Shown here: positions 1 to 63,575 of the stretch, one piece after another
Layout: each line of letters opens with the position of its first letter
Numbering within the stretch: the stretch's first letter is position 1
Notes under the pieces: generated by a model
What the model saw: only the letters and a program-made list of their open reading frames with translations
What the model was told of the DNA's origin: nothing
Database searches by the model: none
Source of the DNA: Acidobacteriota bacterium
GTDB taxonomy: Bacteria; Acidobacteriota; Polarisedimenticolia; J045
NCBI GenBank assembly: GCA_027021395.1
Contig: JALUUK010000112.1
Location: forward strand, 1-63,575
Direction of reading: 5' to 3'
DNA length: 63,575 bases
Position numbers and translations under genes: made by a program

Positions 1-103
1 GTCCGCTGCCGGGGCGCCAGCATAAAGCTTTCTCCCGGCTTAGTTTTTGGCGCATTCCGCGAGCGGCTGGGCTGGCAAGCATGCCCACCGTTGATCGCGC
101 TCC
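1..103. repeat. Terminal overlap (1..103 = 63473..63575): circular or terminally redundant genome, unique length 63472 bp
   Basis: The first 103 nt (gtccgctgccggggcgccagcataaagc...gatcgcgctcc) recur exactly as the last 103 nt. The break point falls inside the last unit (R7) of the repeat array. Confidence 0.95.
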
Positions 104-129
104 GCCTAGCGGTGGCGGAATTGTGTGGT

Positions 130-1431
130 TCATTGGTTGTCCTCCTCTGCGAGCGGTTCCGAGGTTTTCTGCGCCTCGTCAACGCTCGCACCGACGAGGC
201 GTACCGAGATCCCCTTGGGCTCGGCTGCGTTGATGATCGCCTGACGCAGCTGGTCCCAGGGGAATGAATTGACGAACCGCCGGTCCCTGTCATCGTAGGC
301 GATTTCGGCGAACCGCCGGCGGTCCGCATAGCCGACCACGTGTGCCGCAATCTCTGAGATCCAGCTGCGCATCCGCCTGTGTTGCTTGCCGACCATCGCG
401 ATGCGCCGGCTGGCGAATCTCGGCACTGGTCGTTGCTCGGCTTTGGTGTCATCGGAGAATCGGTTCAGTCGCCGCGTGTGGTGCAGGATGGCGCCTCGGA
501 TTCTGCGGATGTGGTCCGCGTGCTCGATCCAGAGGCGTTCGTCCTTCTCGTTCAATGCGACCAACAGACTATCACTATCTGTCTTTACAAACAACGTCCC
601 ATGCCGTTTTTGTTCATCTCGCCGCGGTAGCCACGCGACGATCTTCACGACCACCTCCCAGAGCGCCCGCTGTCCGCCTGCATCGCGTTCGGTGATCTGT
701 CGGCTGGACTGTTGCCCATTGCGTCCAGACCGATCCGGTCCGCCGGCACGTCGTCGGTAGATGGATAGCTCGGCGGGTATCGCATCACCGCGGGCGATTG
801 CCTCGAGCGATCGACGCTGGCGTTTGTACCGCGGACCTGCGACGAGGCGCAGGCGCCACCGTTGCCCTGCCAGGGGGACTGACACGATCAGGTCTCGCCG
901 ATCGTCGTCCGTGATTTCGAGTGACCAGTTGGCAGCCGGTATCGGAACGGGCGCCGGATATTTTGCCCGCGGCAGGTGCTCATCGGAAAGCCATAACACC
1001 TTGTAGCGTCTGGCTTTCCATTTCAGCTTTGCTTGCTGTTCGGTCGCTGCCACGGTGACAGACGAGATTGCCGGGAACCGCTCGCGTGCTTCGGGGTACA
1101 GGTAGATCGTCGGCATTGGCGGCAGTTTTTCCATGCCGGGCTCACGCCGCACATCGCGAGCGTACAGCTCATCCACCAGCCAGTTCCAGAGCCGCGTTTG
1201 ATCCGACCAAGCGTCACGCAGCGCCGCGCGGAACTCCGCCCAGGTCGCGTCGAGAGGTTTTGCCACACGCATCGTGATCGCGCGTAGCACGTAGCGAGCC
1301 TGCCAGCACTGGCGGCACAGCACGGCGTCCCCGTGCCGTTTCCACCCGCGAGGCAGTCTCAGTCCGCGCTTGGTCGGCGTCGTCTTGTGCTCGTCCCAGC
1401 ATGACGAGCATCTGATGATATGATCGGTCAT
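130..1431 (-). CDS. TnpB/Cas12-like protein, C-terminally truncated (no Zn finger or RuvC-III), with extra N-terminal zinc ribbon; candidate RNA-guided DNA-binding protein
   Basis: 433 aa from ATG 1431, with GGAGG about 11 nt upstream. The track ORF reaches 1539 but would overlap the upstream gene by 100 nt. By-eye match to the TnpB order: [19 protein letters not shown] (N-term strand plus helix), [26 protein letters not shown] (WED/REC), [14 protein letters not shown] (RuvC-I-like), [25 protein letters not shown] (lid helix), [35 protein letters not shown] (RuvC-II region). The protein ends about 20 aa later. N-terminus carries CSSC-x27-CRQC. Confidence 0.6.
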   Translation of the reverse strand: [433 protein letters not shown]

Positions 1432-10738: not shown

Positions 10739-11305
10739 ATGGACGCGATTATGACAATGTTGCGGCAGGGGACGACCTACTTCCAGGGAGATGTCCCGAG
10801 CAGCAGCTACTGGGCAAACAGCACGTTCCTCGAGGGAACGGTGACCAAAGCGGCCGTCTTCGACGAGAAAACGGCTGCGGGTGTGCAGGGTCGCACCCGA
10901 AACTGGCAGCGGATCGTCATGGCGGTCAGAAACTCGGGCGCCACGACCTTGCAAGCCGGCGATGTCGTCAAGTGGACCACGCGGCACGCCCGCGTCACGA
11001 AGAACGACACCGACGACGGCGAGGTTGCTGGCATCGTCATCGACAACCTCAACTCGAACGGGTGCGTCCAGAACGACATCTGCCTGATCGTGCGTGAAGG
11101 ACCATGCTACGCCAACAAGAGCACGTCCGAATCGTTCAGCGCCGGCGATGTCGTGAAGGGCGACAACGGTGGCAAGGTGACGGCGATCGGCGCGCCTGCC
11201 GACGCGACCGCAGCGAGGAACCAGGCGATCAACAACGCCGGCAAGGTTCTTGCGGACGCCGCGGCGAGTGCAAGCCAGGTGCTCATCAACGTACGTGAGC
11301 GGTAA
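10739..11305 (+). CDS. capsid-associated / decoration-like protein (DUF2190-like beta modules)
   Basis: 188 aa directly after the capsid gene. Motifs GDVVKW..GEVAGIVID and AGDVVKGDNGGKVTAIG resemble head-decoration beta-barrel proteins. Confidence 0.3.
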   Translation: MDAIMTMLRQGTTYFQGDVPSSSYWANSTFLEGTVTKAAVFDEKTAAGVQGRTRNWQRIVMAVRNSGATTLQAGDVVKWTTRHARVTKNDTDDGEVAGIVIDNLNSNGCVQNDICLIVREGPCYANKSTSESFSAGDVVKGDNGGKVTAIGAPADATAARNQAINNAGKVLADAAASASQVLINVRER

Positions 11306-11307
11306 AT

Positions 11308-11712
11308 GTGGCGGTTACGGAACGATCACTCAAGGCGTGGTTCGGAGACCACTGGCTGCGCGGCATGCCTCCTCCCGTGCGCGAGTCGGTCGAAGGGTCG
11401 CTTGAGGCGATTCGTACCGCCGCATATGAGATATTGAGGAACACCCCAGCCGGTCCTGAGCAGAGCCGTGCGATCACACGGCTTCGGGACCAGTTGGACC
11501 TTGCGATGCTTGCCGCGTGGGAGCAGTATCTTCCAGCATGGCAGGACGCATGGTTTGGTGACCACTGGCTGCGCGGCTTCAAACCGGAAGATAAGTCGCG
11601 TGCAGAAGTCATCCTCCGTGCCGTGCAGAGGGGCGCCGAGTCGCTTGACGGCGACCGGCGCTCGCTGCGCGGTGCCTGGCTGGCTGCAATGCGTGCGTTG
11701 AGGTGTATCTAA
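11308..11712 (+). CDS. hypothetical protein with internal AWFGDHWLRG duplication
   Basis: 134 aa with a GTG start. The motif AWFGDHWLRG occurs twice (near 11335 and 11550). Confidence 0.45.
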   Translation: MAVTERSLKAWFGDHWLRGMPPPVRESVEGSLEAIRTAAYEILRNTPAGPEQSRAITRLRDQLDLAMLAAWEQYLPAWQDAWFGDHWLRGFKPEDKSRAEVILRAVQRGAESLDGDRRSLRGAWLAAMRALRCI

Positions 11713-45850: not shown

Positions 45851-46400
45851 TTTGCTGCCCAGCCTTCTCAAGTACTACGCGCCTCGTGCACACGAATTTG
45901 TCATCGCCGATCACAATGAACCCAGAGCACGCGACGCGGAACGCAACGCCAGATCGGTATCCGAATGCATCCTCCAGCTCAAGTGATGCGTGCAGCCCGC
46001 GGTGACACCGTTTTATCGGCGCGTCGTAGACGTGGATATCGCCAGGTTTCGGTGAAAGGCTCATGCCGAGGTGGCTGTAGGATTCCTCGCCAAACACCCA
46101 ATACGCCAGTACTGGCGTGGAGTGGTCGATGTAGTGCAAGCTGACACCGCCACCGCGACCATCTCTTTCGCCGTAACAGTCACCACGACCGCGGCCACAT
46201 CCGAAGCCGTCACTGTATCCGTAGCCATCACCGTAACCATCACCGTCGCCGTAACCAAAATCACCGCCGTAACCATCACCGGCGCCATAGCCGAATCCAC
46301 CGCCGTCGCCGTCACATCCACCGCCGCGATTATATCCGCTGCCATAGCCGTCACCACGCGACACGCATTCACACCCGTACTCCAGGTCTAGGACTTCCAC
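45837..46400 (-). CDS. Gly/Asp/Tyr-rich low-complexity protein, paralog 2
   Basis: GTG 46400 with GGAGGAGG just upstream (the track ATG is at 46415). The central part is about 90 aa of GYG/GDG repeats. The C-terminal domain is as in 45350..45850. Confidence 0.6.
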   Translation of the reverse strand: MEVLDLEYGCECVSRGDGYGSGYNRGGGCDGDGGGFGYGAGDGYGGDFGYGDGDGYGDGYGYSDGFGCGRGRGDCYGERDGRGGGVSLHYIDHSTPVLAYWVFGEESYSHLGMSLSPKPGDIHVYDAPIKRCHRGLHASLELEDAFGYRSGVAFRVACSGFIVIGDDKFVCTRRVVLEKAGQQNGCH

Positions 46401-55790: not shown

Positions 55791-56105
55791 CAGCGCAGAA
55801 GTCCTATAGGGCGGTCATCCTTGATTACCCCAAGGCCTGGCGTCGGTGTCCGATTGCCCAATGCGATCCCCAACCCACCCTACCTCCAAGCGGCCTGTTG
55901 CGAGCAAACCGCCATCGCTCGAAACACCTGGAGCCTACAGCATCACGCTGCGACCTCTGTACGCTTTGGTCCTGTCCACAGGGCGGTGGCACTAGCGGGA
56001 CTACTTGCGCCGAGGAGGCTTGCCGGCTGCCAGCCGGCGCCGGTTTTAAGGCCCGGTACGCCCAACGGTTCGCTGCCACCAGTGGCTATAAGTCGCCGAC
56101 CGTTC

Positions 56106-56404: not shown

Positions 56405-58087
56405 TCAGTAGAGAGCGTCCTTCGGCACATTCGCGATCTTCCGGTGCCAATCGCTTGCCCTCTTGGGCATGAGCGGCAGGTTCCTGGGCGGATGGTGTGC
56501 CTTCCACGGTGCGAACTCGTACCGCGTACCTTGTGCGGCTTCGCGTGCGACGGACATGAAAAACTGCTGATACAGTTGGTTGAACGTCAGTTCACCGCCG
56601 TGCTTCTTCATTGCGTTCCAGTAGAGCCCACGCCATCTGCCTTCGTTTGAAGGGGCGTCCTTGATCTTCCACTGATCGATGGGTTTCCCGGAAACGAGCT
56701 TGAGTTTCCCATCCTCGTGGATGATGTTGCGGCACGGCTTGTTGATGTCGAATTTCGCCCCGCACTGCTCGCAGTAGAGCAGCCGTTTTTTCATGGAGTT
56801 GTGCAGGGCGCCGCAATGCGGGCACGCAACCCCTTCCAGTTTCCCGGTTTCCCTGATTCTGGATATTCGGTTTTTTGCCAGGACGTTTGCGTCGTCGGTT
56901 GCGAACGCTTCGTCCCAGTCTTGGTTTGCATTTGGAGACCCCCACCGCCACCAGTTCCCTCCGTGATCGGTGACGGTGACGGTCTCCGGGGTCAGCTCCG
57001 ACCTGCGTAGAGCACGACCAACCATTTGCAGGTAACTCCTATGGCTTCCTACCGGAGTTGCGAGGATGAGGTTCTTGATGAGGGGTTCATCGATCCCTTC
57101 TCGCAGGACGAACCTGTTCCAGATGATGTTGATTTCCCCATCCCGCCACTGCTGCATGAGTTCTTCGAACAGGCTGTTTTCGGTCCTCCGATCGTGCATT
57201 TCGCCGTCGCACCAGAAGTCGGTCCCATCGACATGCAGTGCTCGGTAGCCCATGGATGTGAACCATCTGGCAGCCCAGAGCGATTCCTGTACTCCCGGCG
57301 CGAACGCGATGGTGTGAGTCCTGGTTTCGTTGAGGCTCTGCCAGCTCTTGAGGATGTTCCCGATGATGGAAGCCCGCTTCTTCCCTTTCTCGGTCCCCCA
57401 CGTTTTCCGTGCCTGCGCCTCGGACATTGACAGGTCCACCTTCCAGGATGTGAGTTTCCTGGTGTCGAGTTCTGACGGCGCGAACACGATCGCTCTTGCG
57501 AGCACCCGTTCCTTGATGAGATCCCACGTTCCTGCTGCGCAGACTAGCTTATCGTATGCGAGCCCGAGCCCGAGCGGCGTTGCGGTTACGCCGATTATTT
57601 TCGCCCCGCGTGCCAGATACCCGCTGAGAAGCCCCAGATTGCCGCCTGTGGCCATTTTGTGTGCTTCATCGACGATTACCACGTCTGCGTCCACCCATTC
57701 GTCAGAATCCTTCTGGATGCGTGATTTGACGGTTTGGATGGTGCAGATTTGGACGGGCTCGGTTCTGTAGTCGAGGTATTCCATTTGTGCCGACCGGACG
57801 CCGAACGGGATGCCTGCTTCGGAGTAGACCCGGATGGTTTGCTGCGTGAGCAGGATGCGGTCCATGAACAAGGCGACCCGTTTTCCTTGGTTGAGAGCCC
57901 ACCGGATGAGTGCCATCTGCATTTCGGTTTTCCCGGACCCTGTTGGGGATGTGAGGCAGACGGCGCGTTCGCCGTTGGAGATGGCGTTGATCGTCTGTTC
58001 TACGCCGTAGACTTGGTGTTTCCACGGGGCGTCTACGGAGAAGATCGACGCTTCGGTAATCATCTCGTCAGCCTCTGCTGTCATCAT
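56405..58087 (-). CDS. SF2 DEAD/DEAH-box helicase (ResIII-type) with C-terminal zinc ribbon
   Basis: 560 aa. Motif I TSPTGSGKT, motif II VIVDEAHK, motif III VTATP, motif VI QMVGRALRR. Also CPHCG..x12..CEQCG. Confidence 0.85.
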   Translation of the reverse strand: MMTAEADEMITEASIFSVDAPWKHQVYGVEQTINAISNGERAVCLTSPTGSGKTEMQMALIRWALNQGKRVALFMDRILLTQQTIRVYSEAGIPFGVRSAQMEYLDYRTEPVQICTIQTVKSRIQKDSDEWVDADVVIVDEAHKMATGGNLGLLSGYLARGAKIIGVTATPLGLGLAYDKLVCAAGTWDLIKERVLARAIVFAPSELDTRKLTSWKVDLSMSEAQARKTWGTEKGKKRASIIGNILKSWQSLNETRTHTIAFAPGVQESLWAARWFTSMGYRALHVDGTDFWCDGEMHDRRTENSLFEELMQQWRDGEINIIWNRFVLREGIDEPLIKNLILATPVGSHRSYLQMVGRALRRSELTPETVTVTDHGGNWWRWGSPNANQDWDEAFATDDANVLAKNRISRIRETGKLEGVACPHCGALHNSMKKRLLYCEQCGAKFDINKPCRNIIHEDGKLKLVSGKPIDQWKIKDAPSNEGRWRGLYWNAMKKHGGELTFNQLYQQFFMSVAREAAQGTRYEFAPWKAHHPPRNLPLMPKRASDWHRKIANVPKDALY

Positions 58088-58965
58088 GATTCTTCTGGCA
58101 CCCCAAGGAACTCCCGCGTGTACTCCATCGCATTGTCGATGGCGTCCATGATGATCGATCGCGTCCCATCGTTTGGCAGATTGAGCGCATCCGCCGCCTT
58201 GTCGATGAGGCGGATCACCTCGCCGAATTTGGCGTCGATCTGGTTCCAGTAGACGTGCGGATCGAGCTTCGGCTGAGGCTTCTTCTTTTTGCGTTTCGGC
58301 AGCGCCTTGATGAGATCGCCGATTTTCGCTGCCTGCCCGACCCTGACCTTGCGCACGATGACGATTTGCTCTTCTTCCGGCAGTTCCGCGAGCGCTTGCA
58401 GCTCCTCTTCGGTTGCGACGACCGAACCGCTTTCAATCGCCCTTCTCGCCGGCGTGCACAGCTTCTCTACGAGGTCGTGGAAATCCACCGCCCGTCTGAC
58501 GGTAGCCCTGGAGAGCCCGAGTTCATTCGAGACGCTTCGCGACTTCGGAGATAAGTCTTTCTCCTTGCGTTGCTTGGGTTTATGCTCGTCCGCTGGTTTT
58601 TCTTCGCTGATTTTCTTTGCGATCGTTTTCGCACGGCATGCGATCCCGATTTTCCTGATCTGGAGCCGTGCTTGCAGGCTGAGGTTCCGCCTGTCGGTTG
58701 CCCTACTGATCGCGATGGCCTTGATTTCGTTCCGCGATCGCCCTACGCCGATTTCTTTCGCCGGACATTGGATGCCGAGTTCCTGCGCGATTTTGAAGCG
58801 GTGCACGCCATCGACGATGATGTTCTTGCTTCCGTCGAACCAGTAGAGTACGGGGTCTGTGATTTCCCCTTCCCACTCAATGGCCGATTTGAGTGCTTGG
58901 TAGTCGTCTGGTTCGAGCGCCGGAATCTCTGCGTGCAGGTCGTCATCAATGAAGAGTTCAGGCAT
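58084..58965 (-). CDS. ParB-like nuclease domain protein with C-terminal HTH
   Basis: 293 aa from ATG 58965 (GGAGA upstream). ..PVLYWFDGSKNIIVDGVHRFKIAQELG is the ParB/Srx N-domain motif. ..LGLSRATVRRAV is HTH-like. Confidence 0.7.
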   Translation of the reverse strand: MPELFIDDDLHAEIPALEPDDYQALKSAIEWEGEITDPVLYWFDGSKNIIVDGVHRFKIAQELGIQCPAKEIGVGRSRNEIKAIAISRATDRRNLSLQARLQIRKIGIACRAKTIAKKISEEKPADEHKPKQRKEKDLSPKSRSVSNELGLSRATVRRAVDFHDLVEKLCTPARRAIESGSVVATEEELQALAELPEEEQIVIVRKVRVGQAAKIGDLIKALPKRKKKKPQPKLDPHVYWNQIDAKFGEVIRLIDKAADALNLPNDGTRSIIMDAIDNAMEYTREFLGVPEES

Positions 58966-59011
58966 TTTCGTCTCCACCACCGATCCAGTTTTTTCGATCC
59001 AGCCGTTTCCG

Positions 59012-59407
59012 TCAACGCTGTTTCGCCCATTTCCCGCGAGACGGGCGCTTTGCTCTTGGCAATCTTCCACCCAACCACAAGCCAGCCAAGTACTTGCGAT
59101 CGTAGAATTTTCCGTCGAATTTTTTCTTGAGCCAGAGCAATTCTGCCAACGTGATCTTTGGCATTGCCGCGCCGTCGATGACGCACCGCAGCCCGTGTGC
59201 GAGTTTGTGGCACAGCGAGCAGAGCATGACGACTTCCCGCCGGTCGTCGTGCCTTCTGCCGATTCCAGGGATGATGTGATGCGCTTCGATAATCATCGGG
59301 AAATGCCACGGATCGCCGTATCTCCAGCCGCAGTACCAGCATTCAGCGTTTTCGATTCTTAGGCTTTCGATGGTACTCGGGCTGCGCTGTGTCCGGGTAT
59401 TGTTCAT
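59012..59407 (-). CDS. HNH endonuclease
   Basis: About 131 aa (ATG 59407 or 59425). CWYCGW..EAHHIIPG..LCSLCHKLAHG is the HNH beta-beta-alpha-metal motif. Overlaps both neighbouring genes. Confidence 0.75.
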   Translation of the reverse strand: MNNTRTQRSPSTIESLRIENAECWYCGWRYGDPWHFPMIIEAHHIIPGIGRRHDDRREVVMLCSLCHKLAHGLRCVIDGAAMPKITLAELLWLKKKFDGKFYDRKYLAGLWLGGRLPRAKRPSRGKWAKQR

Positions 59408-59708
59408 CGACGCTCTTCCATCCATCGTATCCGTCGCCGAGGTATCGATCGAAGTTTTTGACGAAAGCAGAGCTGTCGAGTGCGATTTCCTCGAACACAG
59501 CGACGAGCACAGGCTTTTCGCCCCGGTTCCAGTACAGCTTGTCCGGGTGCATGTATTCCCCCTCGACATCGACTTTGGTTTCCGACGAGAGGAATGGCAG
59601 TTTACACCATTTCGCAAGGGTTGCGATCCCTTGCATCTTCGGTGGTTCGTTATTTTCCTGCGAAACGATTTCAACGCTTCGCACGAGCAGAATTGGCATG
59701 ACTTGCAT
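59343..59708 (-). CDS. hypothetical protein
   Basis: 121 aa, coupled to its neighbours. Confidence 0.5.
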   Translation of the reverse strand: MQVMPILLVRSVEIVSQENNEPPKMQGIATLAKWCKLPFLSSETKVDVEGEYMHPDKLYWNRGEKPVLVAVFEEIALDSSAFVKNFDRYLGDGYDGWKSVDEQYPDTAQPEYHRKPKNRKR

Positions 59709-59965
59709 CAGGATTCCTCCACATTCTCGTCGTCCTTCTCGGCAGCCGTGCTGTCGGTTTCTTCGAAACCTTTGCCCTCAGCCTTTGCGACGGCCTCAAG
59801 CACCGCTTGAGCGGCTTCGCCGCATTCTTTGCACTGTTCGCCGCCCACAGCCGCGATGGCGTTGAGGATGGCGACAGCCTTTGTGATCGTCCGCATCGCC
59901 TGTGCGGCGACTTCGACGCCGATGTTGCCGTCTTGATCAACCTTGCATCTCACTATCGTCCCCAT
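59708..59965 (-). CDS. hypothetical small protein
   Basis: 85 aa from ATG 59965 (GGAGGA at 59971-59976). Confidence 0.45.
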   Translation of the reverse strand: MGTIVRCKVDQDGNIGVEVAAQAMRTITKAVAILNAIAAVGGEQCKECGEAAQAVLEAVAKAEGKGFEETDSTAAEKDDENVEES

Positions 59966-60626
59966 CGTGTTCCTCCAGTTCTTTTTCGCAGAGTTCAAGT
60001 TCTTCGGCTGTCCACTGCCGGAAATCGATTGCGTCGAAGTCACGTCCAACGACGCTGCACACCCATTCGCGGAAGCATTCCGCGAGTTTTTCCCTTGGCG
60101 TGTCTTGTGGCAGCTTCCGACCGATCTTCTCGTGCCACTTTCGTTTGATGGCGATCATGTCGGGCTGCGTGATTTTCCCGGCCATCTTCCGGAAGAACTC
60201 CGGGGTGTGCTTTTCGGGGTCCTCTGCCGCGTACGGCAGGTTGAGCAGTTGGCAGATGGCGTATTTGTGCGCCGCGGTGAGTGCCTTGCTTGAGGCTTTG
60301 TCTCCGCCGTCCATGCCTTCACCGACGACGGTTGCGGTTATGCACGAACCATCCTCCGCGTAGAACGAGTATTCCACAGTGAGCATGGAGTATATGATGG
60401 TTCCTCCGTTCCGTGTGGTTCCCATTTCCCGTTTTTGGTCAATCACCTTGGGAACTGAGAATATGCCGTGCTTTGCGAACAGCGGCTGCACGCGGTTGTA
60501 GACCTGTTCTGCTGAGCGGTAGGGGTATTTCTGCTGTTCGTTCATGGCGTCCTTGCCGATTGCCCCGACCTCACGCATGACCGCGATAATAGCCTGTCGT
60601 ATTCCAGCCCCCTCAGAATGGCTCAT
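59937..60626 (-). CDS. erf: Erf-family single-strand annealing protein
   Basis: 229 aa from ATG 60626. QKYPYRSAEQVYNRVQPLF and GMDGGDKASSKALTAAHKYAICQLLNLP parallel P22 Erf (KYKYRSCEDILEGVKPLL; GMDAAQVTGATSSYARKYCLNGLFGI). Confidence 0.8.
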   Translation of the reverse strand: MSHSEGAGIRQAIIAVMREVGAIGKDAMNEQQKYPYRSAEQVYNRVQPLFAKHGIFSVPKVIDQKREMGTTRNGGTIIYSMLTVEYSFYAEDGSCITATVVGEGMDGGDKASSKALTAAHKYAICQLLNLPYAAEDPEKHTPEFFRKMAGKITQPDMIAIKRKWHEKIGRKLPQDTPREKLAECFREWVCSVVGRDFDAIDFRQWTAEELELCEKELEEHDGDDSEMQG

Positions 60627-61287
60627 TGACGATCTCCCTGTATTTTTCCCTGAGTTTGTCACGGAACCGGATGACCGCAGGCGCGAGGATTTCGTTGATG
60701 TAGCCGTCATCCCGTTCGACCTTCTTGATGAACAGCGGGTTGACGCCACTTGCCTCGAGGCGTGGGTCGAACGAGCAGAAGCAGTAGAATTTCTTCTTGG
60801 CAATCCACAGCGAGCCCTGCACCTGTTCGATGTGTTTCTCCGGCATTTCGCCATCCAGCATGGTCCTGATGTGGACCGCCGGGTTTGCCGGGCATTTTAT
60901 TTCCAGCAGCCCATCCTCGCCGATGATTCCATCTGGCGAGCATCCGATTCCTGGCTCTGTCGGATGCTGGATGTAGGCGAACTCGCCCTCTGGCAGGGTT
61001 GGCGGCGTTCCGAACCGTTTTTCGATTGCCTCAACCGCGGCGTCGAATGCGTGGCTTTCCCACTCGGATCCCCACCGCATTGCGGCGTTCTGCCATCTGT
61101 CGATCGGCATTCCCGTGAGGAGTTCCGCGAGCAGTTCCTCCATGTACCGCATGGCGGTTTCGGACATTTCGCCGGCATCCCTGGCGGCTTTTGTCCTGGG
61201 TTTGGTGAGCACATCTTTGAATCTGGACGCTGTGACATCGCCCAGGCGTGCCATCCTCCATTCAGTCGTCCGTTGTTTCATGGTCAT
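60613..61287 (-). CDS. YqaJ-like / lambda-exonuclease-type recombination exonuclease (PD-(D/E)xK)
   Basis: 224 aa. RLGDVTASRF (YqaJ N-terminal motif) and GCSPDGIIGEDGLLEIKCP (D..ExK core). Confidence 0.8.
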   Translation of the reverse strand: MTMKQRTTEWRMARLGDVTASRFKDVLTKPRTKAARDAGEMSETAMRYMEELLAELLTGMPIDRWQNAAMRWGSEWESHAFDAAVEAIEKRFGTPPTLPEGEFAYIQHPTEPGIGCSPDGIIGEDGLLEIKCPANPAVHIRTMLDGEMPEKHIEQVQGSLWIAKKKFYCFCSFDPRLEASGVNPLFIKKVERDDGYINEILAPAVIRFRDKLREKYREIVNEPF

Positions 61288-62794: not shown

Positions 62795-62970
62795 TGTCTT
62801 GCATCCTCCTTGACGAGGTTCAGGTGCCATCCTCTGGCGTCGTAGATGATCCCTTGTGGCCAGACACCGAACATCCGTTTCCAGGTAGCGATTGCTCGGT
62901 GGTACCGTTCGAACGGCAGTGTATTGAGCCACCGCCAGTGTCTCCAGTGTTTTGTAGATTCGTTTGACAT
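62758..62970 (-). CDS. hypothetical Trp/Arg/His-rich protein directly downstream of the repeat array
   Basis: 70 aa from ATG 62970 (GGAGGA at 62975-62980). Begins MSNESTKHWRHWRWLNTLPFERYHRAIATWKRMF... Confidence 0.5.
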   Translation of the reverse strand: MSNESTKHWRHWRWLNTLPFERYHRAIATWKRMFGVWPQGIIYDARGWHLNLVKEDARQCPYSKRFCSCV

Positions 62971-63015
62971 ATCATCCTCCGCAGTTTTTGGGTGTTCTAT
63001 CCCATCATTTTGCTC

Positions 63016-63484
63016 CGCATCGTCCAAACGTTTGTCTGTCCGCTGTCGTGCTGTACATTTTCACCCGCATGTGGCGAATGGGCTACGACCGCAGCGACTA
63101 AACGTTCGTTCATCTGCTGCCTGTAGCCGCAGTCGATTGAGCAAATCTGGTCCGATATCCCGCAACGCCCAAACGCCCGTTTGTCCGCTGCCGGGTGTTG
63201 TGCATCCTTGGAATGGGAGTGAACGGCAATCCCGCGTCGTCCAAACGTTTGTCTGTCTGCTGCCGGCTTTTCGACTGCTATGAGGCGGCAGACGAACGGT
63301 GCCCCCGCAGCGTTCAAACGCCCGTTTGTCCGCTGTTGCCACTCGCGACTTCGACTCGCTGAAGCTTGGGAGCGTACATGCAGTTGATAAACATTCGTTT
63401 ATCCGCTGCCGTACTGGCTAATGTGGAATGACCGCTAGGGCCTGCTCTCCCGCAGCATCTAAACGCTCGTTTGTCCGCTGCCGG
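63016..63484 (-). CRISPR. CRISPR-like array: 7 degenerate ~34-bp hairpin repeats, 71-74-bp period, unique 37-40-bp spacers; co-oriented with and ~117 nt downstream of the TnpB-like gene
   Basis: Repeat starts (+ strand): 63016, 63090, 63161, 63233, 63306, 63379, 63451. Consensus cgcagcgNNcaaacgNNcgtttgtccgctgccgg. On the minus strand the outer stem is GCAGCG/CGCTGC and the inner stem AAACG/CGTTT. The spacers show no similarity to each other. A possible decayed eighth unit lies near 62944. No cas1, cas2 or cas4 is present anywhere in the genome. Confidence 0.45.
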
Positions 63485-63575
63485 GGCGCCAGCATAAAGC
63501 TTTCTCCCGGCTTAGTTTTTGGCGCATTCCGCGAGCGGCTGGGCTGGCAAGCATGCCCACCGTTGATCGCGCTCC

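What the first reader, a model, noticed from the sequence alone, without database searches (positions are those of the whole stretch)
62944..63575. Seven-unit degenerate repeat-spacer array downstream of the TnpB-like gene, with no adaptation genes
- Seven units have starts at 63016, 63090, 63161, 63233, 63306, 63379 and 63451. Each has a ~34-bp repeat and a unique 37-40-bp spacer.
- The array continues across the circular junction: nt 1-12 are the end of R7. It ends 117 nt from the stop of 130..1431, on the same strand.
- The conserved positions are cgca, caaacg and tgtccgctg. On the minus strand each repeat can fold as GCAGCG-3nt-AAACG-NN-CGTTT-3nt-CGCTGC.
- Some differences between units keep the pairing. 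For example, R3 has a G-U in the outer stem, and R7 shortens the stem to GCAGC/GCTGC.
- Repeat identity is only about 70-90%. R1 and R4 form a sub-type (cgtccaaacgtttgtctgtc). A decayed unit may lie near 62944, overlapping the start of the next gene.
- This looks like a fixed, non-acquiring guide array, in line with TnpB-to-type-V intermediates, rather than a canonical CRISPR.
- Alternative: the 72-73-bp period is close to 7 helical turns, which would place palindromic sites (CAAACGnnCGTTTG) on one face of the DNA. That arrangement suits a protein-binding iteron, centromere or pac-type array.
Basis: partly seen in the sequence, partly recalled or inferred. Interest (0 to 1): 0.9.

Follow-up and report, generated by a model that had tools for sequence, protein, structure and literature searches.

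The report
Phage mini-Cas12f-like guide RNA array
The seven degenerate repeats are the guide-RNA array of a small, probably non-cutting Cas12f-like protein carried by a soil phage, part of a large unannotated family that could supply very compact programmable DNA binders.

Summary
Seven 36-nt hairpin repeats with a 71-74 nt period and six unique 35-38 nt spacers lie at 63014-63484. The repeat motif occurs nowhere else in the window.

The neighbouring 433-aa gene (130-1431, minus strand) folds like Cas12f (Foldseek E 6e-18). It ends where the zinc finger and third RuvC motif would begin, as in published nuclease-dead dCas12f.

The 117-nt gap between gene and array is a 108-nt structured RNA. 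It has strong covariation and abuts the first repeat.

The cassette of gene, scaffold RNA and array recurs in about 40 loci from Acidobacteriota phages, prophages and chromosomes. Most relatives have identical 36-nt repeats and unique spacers, so they look like ordinary CRISPR arrays. Excess G·U pairs on the gene strand favour RNA over a DNA binding site.

The closest relative shares the scaffold (90%) but no spacers.

No spacer target, Cas1 or Cas2 was found. Cleavage-free silencing is therefore inferred, not shown.

Verdict: a new, phage-borne variant of nuclease-dead type V-F-like systems. The window's array is unusually degenerate. The iteron or centromere alternative is not supported.

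The parts
130..1431 (-). Gene for a 433-aa Cas12f-like protein. It has an N-terminal CxxC...CxxC zinc ribbon and WED/REC/RuvC-I/II-like regions. It has no TNB zinc finger and no RuvC-III segment.
   Evidence: - The AlphaFold2 model built with an 83-sequence alignment has pLDDT 92.4.
- Foldseek against PDB gives AsCas12f at E 6e-18 and dCas12f 9n9c at E 1.7e-13, followed by TnpB and Cas12k/m/g.
- The profile against PDB sequences gives AsCas12f at E 2e-5 and dCas12f at E 3e-3, aligned to residue 362 of 365.
- PADLOC gives Cas12f at E 4e-7.
- Only 34-57 residues follow the RuvC-II-like YDD motif across the family.
13..120 (-). 108-nt structured scaffold RNA, like a tracrRNA or omega-RNA. It has five helices (P1-P5). 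Its 3' end abuts the first repeat.
   Evidence: - Covariance model R1 scores 129 bits, E 1.6e-25, here. It hits the same position and strand in nearly every related locus.
- 89.8% of cells are paired, against 32-38% for slid controls.
- 27 of 28 pairs carry compensatory changes.
- There are 59 G·U against 27 A·C cells, p = 7e-4.
- The element is 90% identical to the closest relative, against 68% for the coding DNA.
63449..63484 (-). Repeat 1 (proximal to the scaffold), CCGGCAGCGGACAAACGAGCGUUUAGAUGCUGCGGG.
   Evidence: -14.6 kcal/mol, z -2.84.
63413..63448 (-). Spacer 1 (36 nt).
   Evidence: No match in the window, the loci, phages, plasmids or viral contigs.
63377..63412 (-). Repeat 2. Its inner stem has been remodelled to GAUAAAC/GUUUAUC.
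   Evidence: -14.4 kcal/mol, z -5.49.
63340..63376 (-). Spacer 2 (37 nt).
   Evidence: No match.
63304..63339 (-). Repeat 3.
   Evidence: z -3.27.
63267..63303 (-). Spacer 3 (37 nt).
   Evidence: No match.
63231..63266 (-). Repeat 4 (sub-type GACAGACAAACGUUUGGACGA).
   Evidence: z -1.74, the weakest hairpin.
63195..63230 (-). Spacer 4 (36 nt).
   Evidence: No match.
63159..63194 (-). Repeat 5.
   Evidence: -18.6 kcal/mol, z -3.37.
63124..63158 (-). Spacer 5 (35 nt).
   Evidence: No match.
63088..63123 (-). Repeat 6.
   Evidence: z -2.28.
63050..63087 (-). Spacer 6 (38 nt).
   Evidence: No match. It was not scanned in viral contigs.
63014..63049 (-). Repeat 7 (distal, same sub-type as repeat 4).
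   Evidence: z -4.50.
63473..63575 (.). Terminal redundancy. It is an exact copy of nt 1-103, from circular assembly overlap or a direct terminal repeat. It is not extra array.

Best explanation
**What it is.** The seven units are the guide-RNA (CRISPR-like) array of a phage-borne type V-F-like system with no adaptation genes.

**Shown.**
- The cassette reads on the minus strand as gene (1431->130), then a 108-nt structured scaffold RNA (120->13), then seven 36-nt hairpin repeats alternating with six unique 35-38-nt spacers (63484->63014).
- The protein has a Cas12f fold but stops just after the RuvC-II-like strand. It has no zinc-finger (TNB) domain and no third RuvC motif, like the experimentally characterised nuclease-dead dCas12f.

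**Inferred.**
- The cassette is transcribed as one RNA together with the leftward early operon.
- The RNA is processed into units of a repeat-derived 5' handle plus a spacer-derived 3' guide. The scaffold is either fused to the first unit or acts in trans on the others.
- The ribonucleoprotein binds complementary DNA next to an unknown adjacent motif. It blocks transcription or replication without cutting, so the phage can silence host genes or genes of rival elements.

**This window.** The window's array is an old or relaxed version. The repeats have diverged to 58-86% identity, yet all keep the hairpin.
For: **Protein.**
- The model has pLDDT 92.4.
- Foldseek top hits are AsCas12f at E 6e-18 and dCas12f 9n9c at E 1.7e-13.
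- hmmsearch gives AsCas12f at E 2e-5. It aligns to dCas12f up to residue 362 of 365.
- PADLOC Cas12f and Cas12u3 profiles are matched only to position about 340 of 399.

**Scaffold RNA.**
- It is found on the gene strand in every locus that had sequence downstream of the gene.
- 27 of 28 pairs covary, and 89.8% of cells are paired against about 35% for slid controls.
- G·U 59 against A·C 27.
- Its 3' end abuts the first repeat within 1 nt in 19 of 21 array loci.

**Arrays.**
- More than 20 relatives at 35-72% protein identity carry 2-14 identical 36-nt repeats. The period is 70-77 nt and the spacers are unique.
- Repeat sequences differ between loci but keep the hairpin. 11 of 14 pairs are compensatory, and 75% of cells are paired against 28-46% for slid controls.
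- The gene strand folds better than its complement in 17 of 20 loci, p = 0.001.
- G·U 28 against A·C 12, p = 0.017.

**Guide polarity.**
- Single-guide loci carry scaffold, one hairpin, then a conserved sequence.
- Half-repeat arrays keep only the 3' half of the repeat.

**Spacers and context.**
- Spacers of the window and of the closest relative are unrelated (0.56 identity against 0.55 for shuffled), while the scaffold is 90% identical.
- The cassette sits in different contexts.
- The region has no promoter-like or terminator-like site.
Against: - No target was found for any spacer. The searches covered 104 spacers against 422 kb of related DNA, 89 against INPHARED phages, 39 against PLSDB plasmids, and 22-nt seeds of five window spacers against IMG/VR.
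- No expression data are available.
- The window's repeats are far more degenerate than a working CRISPR array usually tolerates. Under a simple symmetric pairing model the window's own repeats show no G·U excess (6 against 7).
- No co-varying anti-repeat links scaffold and repeat. How units 2-7 would join the scaffold is therefore unknown.
- Acidic residues persist at D287 (92% acidic), D380/D381, D306, D328 and E332. A rearranged active site, and so some nuclease activity, cannot be excluded.
Confidence: 0.75

Rival explanations
1. Decaying relic. The cassette once worked, but in this phage units 2-7 are drifting and are no longer used. At most the scaffold-fused first unit still makes a guide.
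For: - Repeat identity is only 58-86%.
- The first repeat is closest to the lineage consensus, with 2 mismatches against 3-11 for the others.
- Chromosomal relatives work with a scaffold plus a single hairpin and guide.
- No targets were found.
Against: - All seven units keep a stable hairpin. Repeat 2 remodels both arms to GAUAAAC/GUUUAUC.
- The period stays at 71-74 nt with no indel decay.
- The gene keeps every family-invariant residue.
- The closest relative shows the same tolerance of variant repeats.
Confidence: 0.15
2. Double-stranded-DNA protein-binding array. The palindromic sites, spaced about 7 helical turns apart, would be bound by a phage protein (ParB-like, XRE or Rep) as iterons, a centromere or a pac site.
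For: - Each unit is a near-palindrome and the period is 72-73 bp.
- In this window the array sits at the head of the recombination and replication block, which holds XRE, YqaJ, ERF, a ParB-like protein and a helicase.
Against: - Pairing shows a strand bias. G·U exceeds A·C, and the gene strand folds better in 17 of 20 loci.
- The array always travels with the Cas12f-like gene and scaffold RNA, not with replication or partition genes. Contexts include between portal and terminase, near an integrase and in a chromosome.
- The motif occurs nowhere else in the genome.
- The sequences between sites are unique and kept to a constant length, as spacers are.
Confidence: 0.04
3. An orphan phage CRISPR array that borrows the host's Cas machinery (for example type I) rather than the adjacent protein.
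For: - Phage mini-arrays that use host Cas proteins are known (established knowledge).
- One relative has type I-E genes 6 kb downstream.
- No cas1 or cas2 is present in the cassette.
Against: - Repeat sequence changes with the adjacent protein across loci.
- The scaffold RNA abuts the first repeat in 19 of 21 loci.
- The 36-nt whole-length hairpin repeats match no Rfam CRISPR-DR family.
- Most loci have no other cas gene within 10 kb.
Confidence: 0.04
4. Active miniature nuclease. The protein keeps catalysis through a rearranged RuvC site, and the cassette is a cutting anti-MGE CRISPR system.
For: - D306, D328 and E332 are invariant. D287 and D380/D381 are well conserved as acidic residues.
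- Rearranged TnpB/Cas12 catalytic sites are documented (PMC10691335).
Against: - The whole RuvC-III/TNB segment is missing.
- The family ends at the same point as the experimentally nuclease-dead dCas12f.
Confidence: 0.1

Closest known systems
Nuclease-dead Cas12f homologues (dCas12f; Nature 2026, PMC13472631), including the briefly mentioned cluster of dCas12f next to CRISPR arrays
   Same: - Cas12f fold.
- A C-terminal truncation removes part of the RuvC site.
- The profile aligns to dCas12f 9n9c up to its last residues.
- A structured guide-RNA scaffold lies in the intergenic region upstream of the array.
- The expected outcome is RNA-guided DNA binding without cutting.
   Different: - No sigma-E partner lies next to the gene.
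- The hosts are Acidobacteriota and their phages, not Bacteroidota.
- Sequence similarity is marginal (E 3e-3).
- Arrays are multi-spacer, with up to 14 units and whole-length hairpin repeats.
- The scaffold is fused directly to the first repeat.
- The published CRISPR-linked cluster was described only bioinformatically. Whether it includes this family could not be checked.
Cas12f / type V-F CRISPR-Cas (AsCas12f, Un1Cas12f; PADLOC Cas12f and Cas12u3 profiles)
   Same: - Best structural and profile matches.
- Similar size of about 400 aa.
- 36-nt repeats.
- A non-coding scaffold lies between the gene and the array.
   Different: - It lacks the TNB zinc finger and RuvC-III.
- No cas1, cas2 or cas4 is present.
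- No detectable anti-repeat:repeat duplex. Each repeat is a self-contained hairpin.
- It has an extra N-terminal zinc ribbon.
TldR (TnpB-like nuclease-dead repressors encoded by prophages; PMC10705468)
   Same: - Phage or prophage-borne.
- TnpB-family protein with a disabled RuvC.
- The guide RNA is encoded directly 3' of the gene.
- The presumed role is programmable repression.
- Chromosomal relatives of this family carry a single conserved guide.
   Different: - TldR uses one omega-RNA with one short guide. This cassette carries a repeat-spacer array.
- The protein's nearest relatives are Cas12f rather than IS-borne TnpB.
- No fliC or opp association was seen.
Binding-only type V effectors Cas12k, Cas12m and Cas12c
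   Same: RNA-guided DNA binding without target cleavage. They also appear among the Foldseek hits.
   Different: - Those proteins are larger (about 600-1200 aa).
- They keep a complete RuvC fold.
- Cas12k works with Tn7-like transposition genes, which are absent here.

Membership tests
Type V-F CRISPR-Cas (Cas12f) | Single effector with the TnpB/Cas12f fold | tested here: met
   - Foldseek gives AsCas12f at E 6e-18, probability 1.0, about 390-405 aligned columns.
- hmmsearch gives E 2e-5.
- PADLOC Cas12f gives E 4e-7.
Type V-F CRISPR-Cas (Cas12f) | Complete RuvC (motifs I, II, III) with the TNB zinc finger between II and III | tested here: not met
   - The protein ends 34-57 residues after the RuvC-II-like YDD motif.
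- Profile matches stop at about 340 of 399.
- The position aligned to the catalytic Glu of AsCas12f is Asp in 77% of members and Asn, Arg, Ser, Thr or Lys in the others.
Type V-F CRISPR-Cas (Cas12f) | Adjacent repeat-spacer array on the effector's strand | tested here: met
   - The window has 7 repeats and 6 spacers.
- Relatives have identical repeats.
- The strand is supported by the G·U bias.
Type V-F CRISPR-Cas (Cas12f) | tracrRNA with an anti-repeat that pairs with the repeat | tested here: inconclusive
   - A covarying 108-nt scaffold RNA is present.
- Cognate scaffold-repeat duplexes are no stronger than non-cognate ones, -28.5 against -27.2 kcal/mol.
Type V-F CRISPR-Cas (Cas12f) | Adaptation module (cas1, cas2, cas4) | tested here: not met
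   - No such Pfam or PADLOC hit appeared among about 35 window proteins.
- None appeared within 10 kb in the window or in relatives.
- Not every small ORF of the window was scanned.
Canonical CRISPR array | Near-identical direct repeats | tested here: not met
   Window repeats are 58-86% identical pairwise. This feature is met in most relatives.
Canonical CRISPR array | Unique spacers of near-constant length that differ between related genomes | tested here: met
   - Spacers are 35-38 nt.
- Spacers of the window and L027 are at random-level identity while the scaffold is 90% identical.
Canonical CRISPR array | Spacers match mobile elements (protospacers) | tested here: inconclusive
   No match was found. 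The databases searched hold few Acidobacteriota phages, and the viral-contig scans needed exact 22-nt seeds.
dCas12f (nuclease-dead Cas12f homologues) | Cas12f-like fold with a C-terminal truncation that removes part of the RuvC site | tested here: met
   The definition is taken from PMC13472631.
dCas12f (nuclease-dead Cas12f homologues) | Operonic association with an ECF sigma factor (rpoE) | tested here: not met
   - No sigma factor lies next to the gene in the window or in phage loci.
- One chromosomal relative has ECF sigma genes 3-6 kb away on the other strand.
dCas12f (nuclease-dead Cas12f homologues) | Absence of DNA cleavage, with RNA-guided binding | not testable with these tools
   This needs biochemical or in vivo interference assays.
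TldR (TnpB-like nuclease-dead repressors) | A single omega-RNA-like guide at the 3' end of the gene, targeting a host promoter | tested here: not met
   The window has a multi-unit array and no target was found. Single-guide architecture does occur in chromosomal relatives.
Iteron / centromere / pac protein-binding repeat arrays | Repeats act as double-stranded DNA sites. They have no strand bias and are linked to Rep, Par or terminase genes. | tested here: not met
   - Strand-biased wobble pairing.
- Linkage is to the Cas12f-like gene across varied contexts.
- Direct binding could not be tested.
TIGR-Tas | Nop-domain Tas protein next to the array | tested here: not met
   The adjacent protein is Cas12f-like. 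No Nop-domain protein was seen among the scanned neighbours.

The most novel reading that the evidence does not exclude
This may be an undescribed, very large family of roughly 400-aa Cas12f-like proteins, with at least 1,263 clusters at 50% identity, carried by Acidobacteriota phages.
- Its guide architecture would bridge omega-RNA and CRISPR. An omega-RNA-like scaffold is fused to the first unit of an array, and each repeat is a self-paired anti-repeat/repeat hairpin.
- Sister loci have collapsed this to single guides or to 12-nt half-repeat arrays.
- The phages would use it for multiplexed, cleavage-free silencing of host genes or rival elements.
- They would renew spacers without their own Cas1-Cas2.
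Probability: 0.35. Interest if true: 0.85.

Novelty: new variant of a known kind. Interest (0 to 1): 0.72.

Why it matters
- **Programmable silencing by phages.** If the cassette works as inferred, soil phages carry programmable multi-guide gene silencers built on a 400-aa protein. That size is among the smallest RNA-guided DNA binders and is attractive for compact CRISPRi or epigenome tools.
- **Evolution of guide RNAs.** One family shows single scaffold-guide RNAs, half-repeat arrays and full hairpin-repeat arrays side by side. This makes the transition between transposon omega-RNAs and tracrRNA/CRISPR arrays directly comparable.
- **Spacer origin.** Phage arrays of unique spacers exist here without Cas1-Cas2. 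How they arise is an open question.
- **Annotation.** The family has no Pfam or PHROG model and is labelled 'hypothetical protein' in the sources. The 108-nt RNA has no Rfam family.

Tried and rejected
**Searches and models that gave nothing.**
- Pfam and PHROGs found nothing for the protein. NCBIfam gave only a weak TnpB hit, E 0.013.
- Single-sequence phmmer against PDB gave nothing for the window protein or for P0085.
- Single-sequence AlphaFold2 was useless at pLDDT 36. The alignment-based model was needed.
- TRF did not detect the array.
- Rfam found nothing at gathering thresholds. At relaxed thresholds it gave only one chance hit, E 0.4.

**RNA analysis.**
- RNAalifold on a plain MAFFT alignment recovered only helix P1. 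A hand-built structure from three sequences and a covariance model were needed.
- The scaffold's thermodynamic z-score is not significant at -0.49. The evidence for it is covariation, not energy.
- A regular-expression hunt for the scaffold failed.
- The duplex test for an anti-repeat was negative.

**Target and relative searches.**
- Spacer searches were all negative.
- The metagenome scan with the conserved scaffold stretch returned only the contig already known. Spacer turnover could therefore be judged against one close relative only.

**Ideas rejected.**
- An eighth decayed unit near 62944.
- The 89-aa ORF overlapping the last repeat. Its likely start is at 62970.
- TIGR-Tas.
- Terminator hairpins, because there are no T-runs.
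Full report
**1. The observation**

The window is a circularly assembled phage genome of 63,472 bp. Nt 1-103 exactly repeat 63473-63575.

The repeat finder returns a single family of seven copies of a 33-nt near-palindrome. The copies start at 63015, 63089, 63160, 63232, 63305, 63378 and 63450, with spacings of 71-74 nt. A degenerate core motif hits all seven units and nothing else in the window, with 0.04 hits expected by chance.

In register with relatives, the units are 36-nt repeats separated by six unique spacers of 35-38 nt. The repeats are at 63014-63049, 63088-63123, 63159-63194, 63231-63266, 63304-63339, 63377-63412 and 63449-63484.

Each repeat folds as a hairpin on the minus strand, with z-scores from -1.7 to -5.5. 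Pairwise repeat identity is 58-86%.

Two points are not:
- Nt 1-12 are a duplicate of a repeat end, not a continuation of the array.
- The 'decayed unit' near 62944 has no support. That region is the start of the next ORF, which probably begins at the ATG at 62970.

**2. The neighbouring protein**

ORF 130-1431 (minus strand, 433 aa) has no Pfam or PHROG hit and only a weak NCBIfam TnpB hit.

It belongs to a large family of full-length proteins of about 400 aa that the sources label only as 'hypothetical protein'. The family has 1,263 cluster representatives at 50% identity with E <= 1e-3, and 709 with E <= 1e-30.

An AlphaFold2 model built from 83 family members has pLDDT 92.4. Its best PDB matches are:
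- AsCas12f at E 6e-18.
- Other Cas12f proteins.
- Nuclease-dead dCas12f (9n9c) at E 1.7e-13.
- TnpB, Cas12k, Cas12m and Cas12g.

The family profile also finds AsCas12f (E 2e-5) and dCas12f (E 3e-3) by sequence. PADLOC's Cas12f and Cas12u3 profiles match as well.

These profile matches stop at about position 340 of 399. In the alignment to AsCas12f, the family's YDD lies on the IQMEDL RuvC-II strand. Only 34-57 residues follow it. The zinc-finger (TNB) domain and the RuvC-III motif are therefore absent.

This is the same truncation that defines published dCas12f (PMC13472631). Several acidic residues remain conserved: D287 (92% acidic), D380/D381, and invariant D306, D328 and E332. I could not map them in 3D. 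'Nuclease-dead' is therefore a strong inference, not a demonstration.

**3. The 117-nt gap is a structured RNA**

In all related loci, the stretch between the stop codon and the first repeat carries conserved motifs. These are AGCGCG, ACGCUUGCCG, CCGCUCGCGGAAYGCG and GGGAUA, flanked by stems that change sequence but stay paired.

A covariance model built from only three sequences finds this element in every related locus that had sequence downstream of the gene. It is always on the gene strand and always just after the gene. In the window it is at 13-120 on the minus strand, at 129 bits and E 1.6e-25.

On the resulting 37-sequence alignment:
- 89.8% of cells are paired, against 32-38% when partners are slid by 1-3 columns.
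- 27 of 28 pairs carry compensatory double changes.
- The covariation score is 0.651, against 0.05-0.07 for the slid controls.

The alignment was fitted to the model. However, helix P1 already showed five of five compensatory pairs on a structure-blind MAFFT alignment.

G·U pairs outnumber A·C mismatches 59 to 27, p = 7e-4. The RNA is therefore read from the gene strand.

The 3' end of the element abuts the first repeat within 1 nt in 19 of 21 array-bearing loci, and in the window. It is 90% identical between the window and its closest relative, where the coding DNA is 68% identical. No Rfam family matches it.

**4. The array in relatives**

Loci encoding proteins 35-72% identical to the window's carry, after the scaffold, arrays of 2-14 repeats of 36 nt. 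The period is 70-77 nt and the spacers are unique. In most of these arrays the repeats are identical.

Repeat sequences differ from locus to locus but keep a whole-length hairpin:
- 75% of cells are paired, against 28-46% for slid controls.
- 11 of 14 pairs have compensatory changes.
- The gene strand folds better than its complement in 17 of 20 loci, Wilcoxon p = 0.001.
- Taking one repeat per locus, G·U exceeds A·C 28 to 12, p = 0.017.

A dimer-binding DNA palindrome would show no such strand bias.

The window's own seven repeats show no G·U excess under the simple symmetric model (6 against 7). By minimum free energy, however, the gene strand folds as well as or better than the complement for all seven.

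The window and its closest relative (L027, 72% protein identity) form a lineage with degenerate repeats. Their spacers are as dissimilar as shuffled sequence, 0.56 against 0.55. The unit numbers also differ, 7 against 5.

**5. Context**

The hosts are Acidobacteriota. The MAG contigs come from Bryobacteraceae and Solibacteraceae.

In the window, the cassette lies near the start of the leftward block. That block continues into the XRE, YqaJ, ERF, ParB-like and helicase genes.

Elsewhere the cassette sits in other contexts:
- Between the portal and terminase genes, on the opposite strand.
- Near an integrase on a 329-kb contig.
- In plain chromosomal surroundings.

The array therefore follows the Cas12f-like gene. 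It does not follow replication, partition or packaging genes.

No cas1, cas2 or cas4 was found among about 35 window proteins, nor within 10 kb in the window or in relatives. The array region has no promoter-like or terminator-like site. This fits read-through from the gene.

**6. Guide polarity and architecture (inferred)**

Three MAG loci carry the scaffold, one hairpin, and then a shared sequence, GATCG(C/G)AAUCA(G/A)GG. Other loci carry many copies of only the 3' half of the repeat, each followed by 8-56 nt of unique sequence, mostly 12-20 nt.

Both patterns place the guide 3' of the repeat, as in type V systems. They also suggest that each full repeat is a self-paired anti-repeat/repeat hairpin.

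I found no co-varying anti-repeat between scaffold and repeat. How units 2-7 associate with the scaffold is unknown.

**7. Targets**

No target was found in any search:

| Query | Searched against |
|---|---|
| 104 spacers of the family | the window and 422 kb of related loci |
| 89 spacers | INPHARED phages |
| 39 spacers | PLSDB plasmids |
| 22-nt seeds of window spacers 1-5 | IMG/VR viral contigs |
| Two control spacers from relatives | IMG/VR viral contigs (each hit only its own contig) |

The window's spacers do not target the window's own genome. The function of the system, meaning what is silenced, remains open.

**8. Explanations**

- **Best (0.75).** A phage-borne, adaptation-less, probably nuclease-dead type V-F-like system. 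This region is its guide array and sits downstream of a fused scaffold RNA.
- **Rival: relic (0.15).** Units 2-7 are decaying.
- **Rival: rearranged active nuclease (0.10).**
- **Rival: double-stranded-DNA iteron, centromere or pac array (0.04).**
- **Rival: orphan array using host Cas proteins (0.04).**

The first two rivals are variants within the same RNA-guided frame.

**9. Comparison and novelty**

The nearest described systems are dCas12f (PMC13472631), TldR (PMC10705468) and the inactivated Cas12f / V-U* branches catalogued in PMC10691335. PMC13472631 also mentions a CRISPR-linked cluster of dCas12f proteins.

This family shares the fold, the truncation and a structured guide scaffold with them. 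It differs in five ways:
- Its hosts are Acidobacteriota and their phages.
- It has no sigma-factor partner.
- It carries multi-spacer arrays of whole-length hairpin repeats.
- The scaffold abuts the array.
- It has an N-terminal zinc ribbon.

I found no paper describing it. I could not test whether it coincides with one of the catalogued branches.

I rate it a new variant of a known kind, with interest 0.72.

Noticed in passing
window 1-103 and 63473-63575: There is an exact 103-bp terminal duplication, so the true circular length is 63,472 bp. The duplication falls inside the scaffold RNA and the end of repeat 1.
   Followed up: yes
L009 5305-6125 (also L006 5169-5899, L020 5689-6630, L024 5880-7184, L031 3800-4210): Some relatives carry dozens of 12-13-nt half repeats instead of 36-nt repeats, for example GGTCACYTCGGG. 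This is the 3' half of the full hairpin repeat. The copies are separated by 8-56 nt of unique sequence, mostly 12-20 nt. The 5' half of the one full hairpin after the scaffold is complementary to them, like a trans anti-repeat.
   Followed up: partly
L028 4329-4380, L029 4323-4375, L030 4317-4370: These MAG loci (Bryobacteraceae and Solibacteraceae) have the scaffold, a single hairpin repeat, and then a shared sequence, GATCG(C/G)AATCA(G/A)GG. They have no array. The pattern looks like a fixed single guide conserved across species. L029 has a tRNA gene about 150 nt further on.
   Followed up: partly
L036 17571-21272: On a 329-kb contig, type I-E genes (Cas6e-like, Cse1, Cse2, Cas7) begin 6 kb downstream of a cassette that has a 7-repeat array. 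An integrase lies 6 kb upstream. I did not resolve whether this is a jumbo phage or a prophage sitting beside a host CRISPR locus.
   Followed up: no
L038 10001-11513: This is a chromosomal family member with a scaffold (11228-11336) but no array. It sits directly after a Ser/Thr kinase gene, and two ECF-type sigma factor genes lie 3-6 kb upstream on the other strand.
   Followed up: no
L031 (3062, 3494, 4261), L022 (4194, 4719), L021 (1091, 1336), L009 (5149, 7244): Several loci carry two or three scaffold copies. In L009 the second copy directly precedes a second array.
   Followed up: partly
L004 5455-5714; L007 4992-5135: Repeat-spacer units are duplicated within arrays, with the same spacer appearing twice at 94-100% identity. 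This points to recombination within the arrays.
   Followed up: no
L039 (ENA ERZ27262676 k141_284599): A second public assembly encodes the identical protein on a 52-kb contig that stops 143 nt after the gene. This is an assembly break at the start of the array.
   Followed up: no
window 59012-59674 and 58084-59070 (minus strand): An HNH-endonuclease-like ORF overlaps the start of the ParB-like ORF. The ERF (59937-60854) and YqaJ (60613-61287) ORFs as listed also overlap by about 240 nt, so some listed start codons are probably too far upstream.
   Followed up: no
window 46199-46325: There is a cluster of 12/18/36-nt tandem repeats (CCGTAACCATCACCG...), with a TRF score up to 110. It is unrelated to the array and is probably a repetitive coding segment.
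   Followed up: no
window 55999-56088: A tRNA-Gly (GCC) gene lies on the plus strand, just outside the helicase gene.
   Followed up: no
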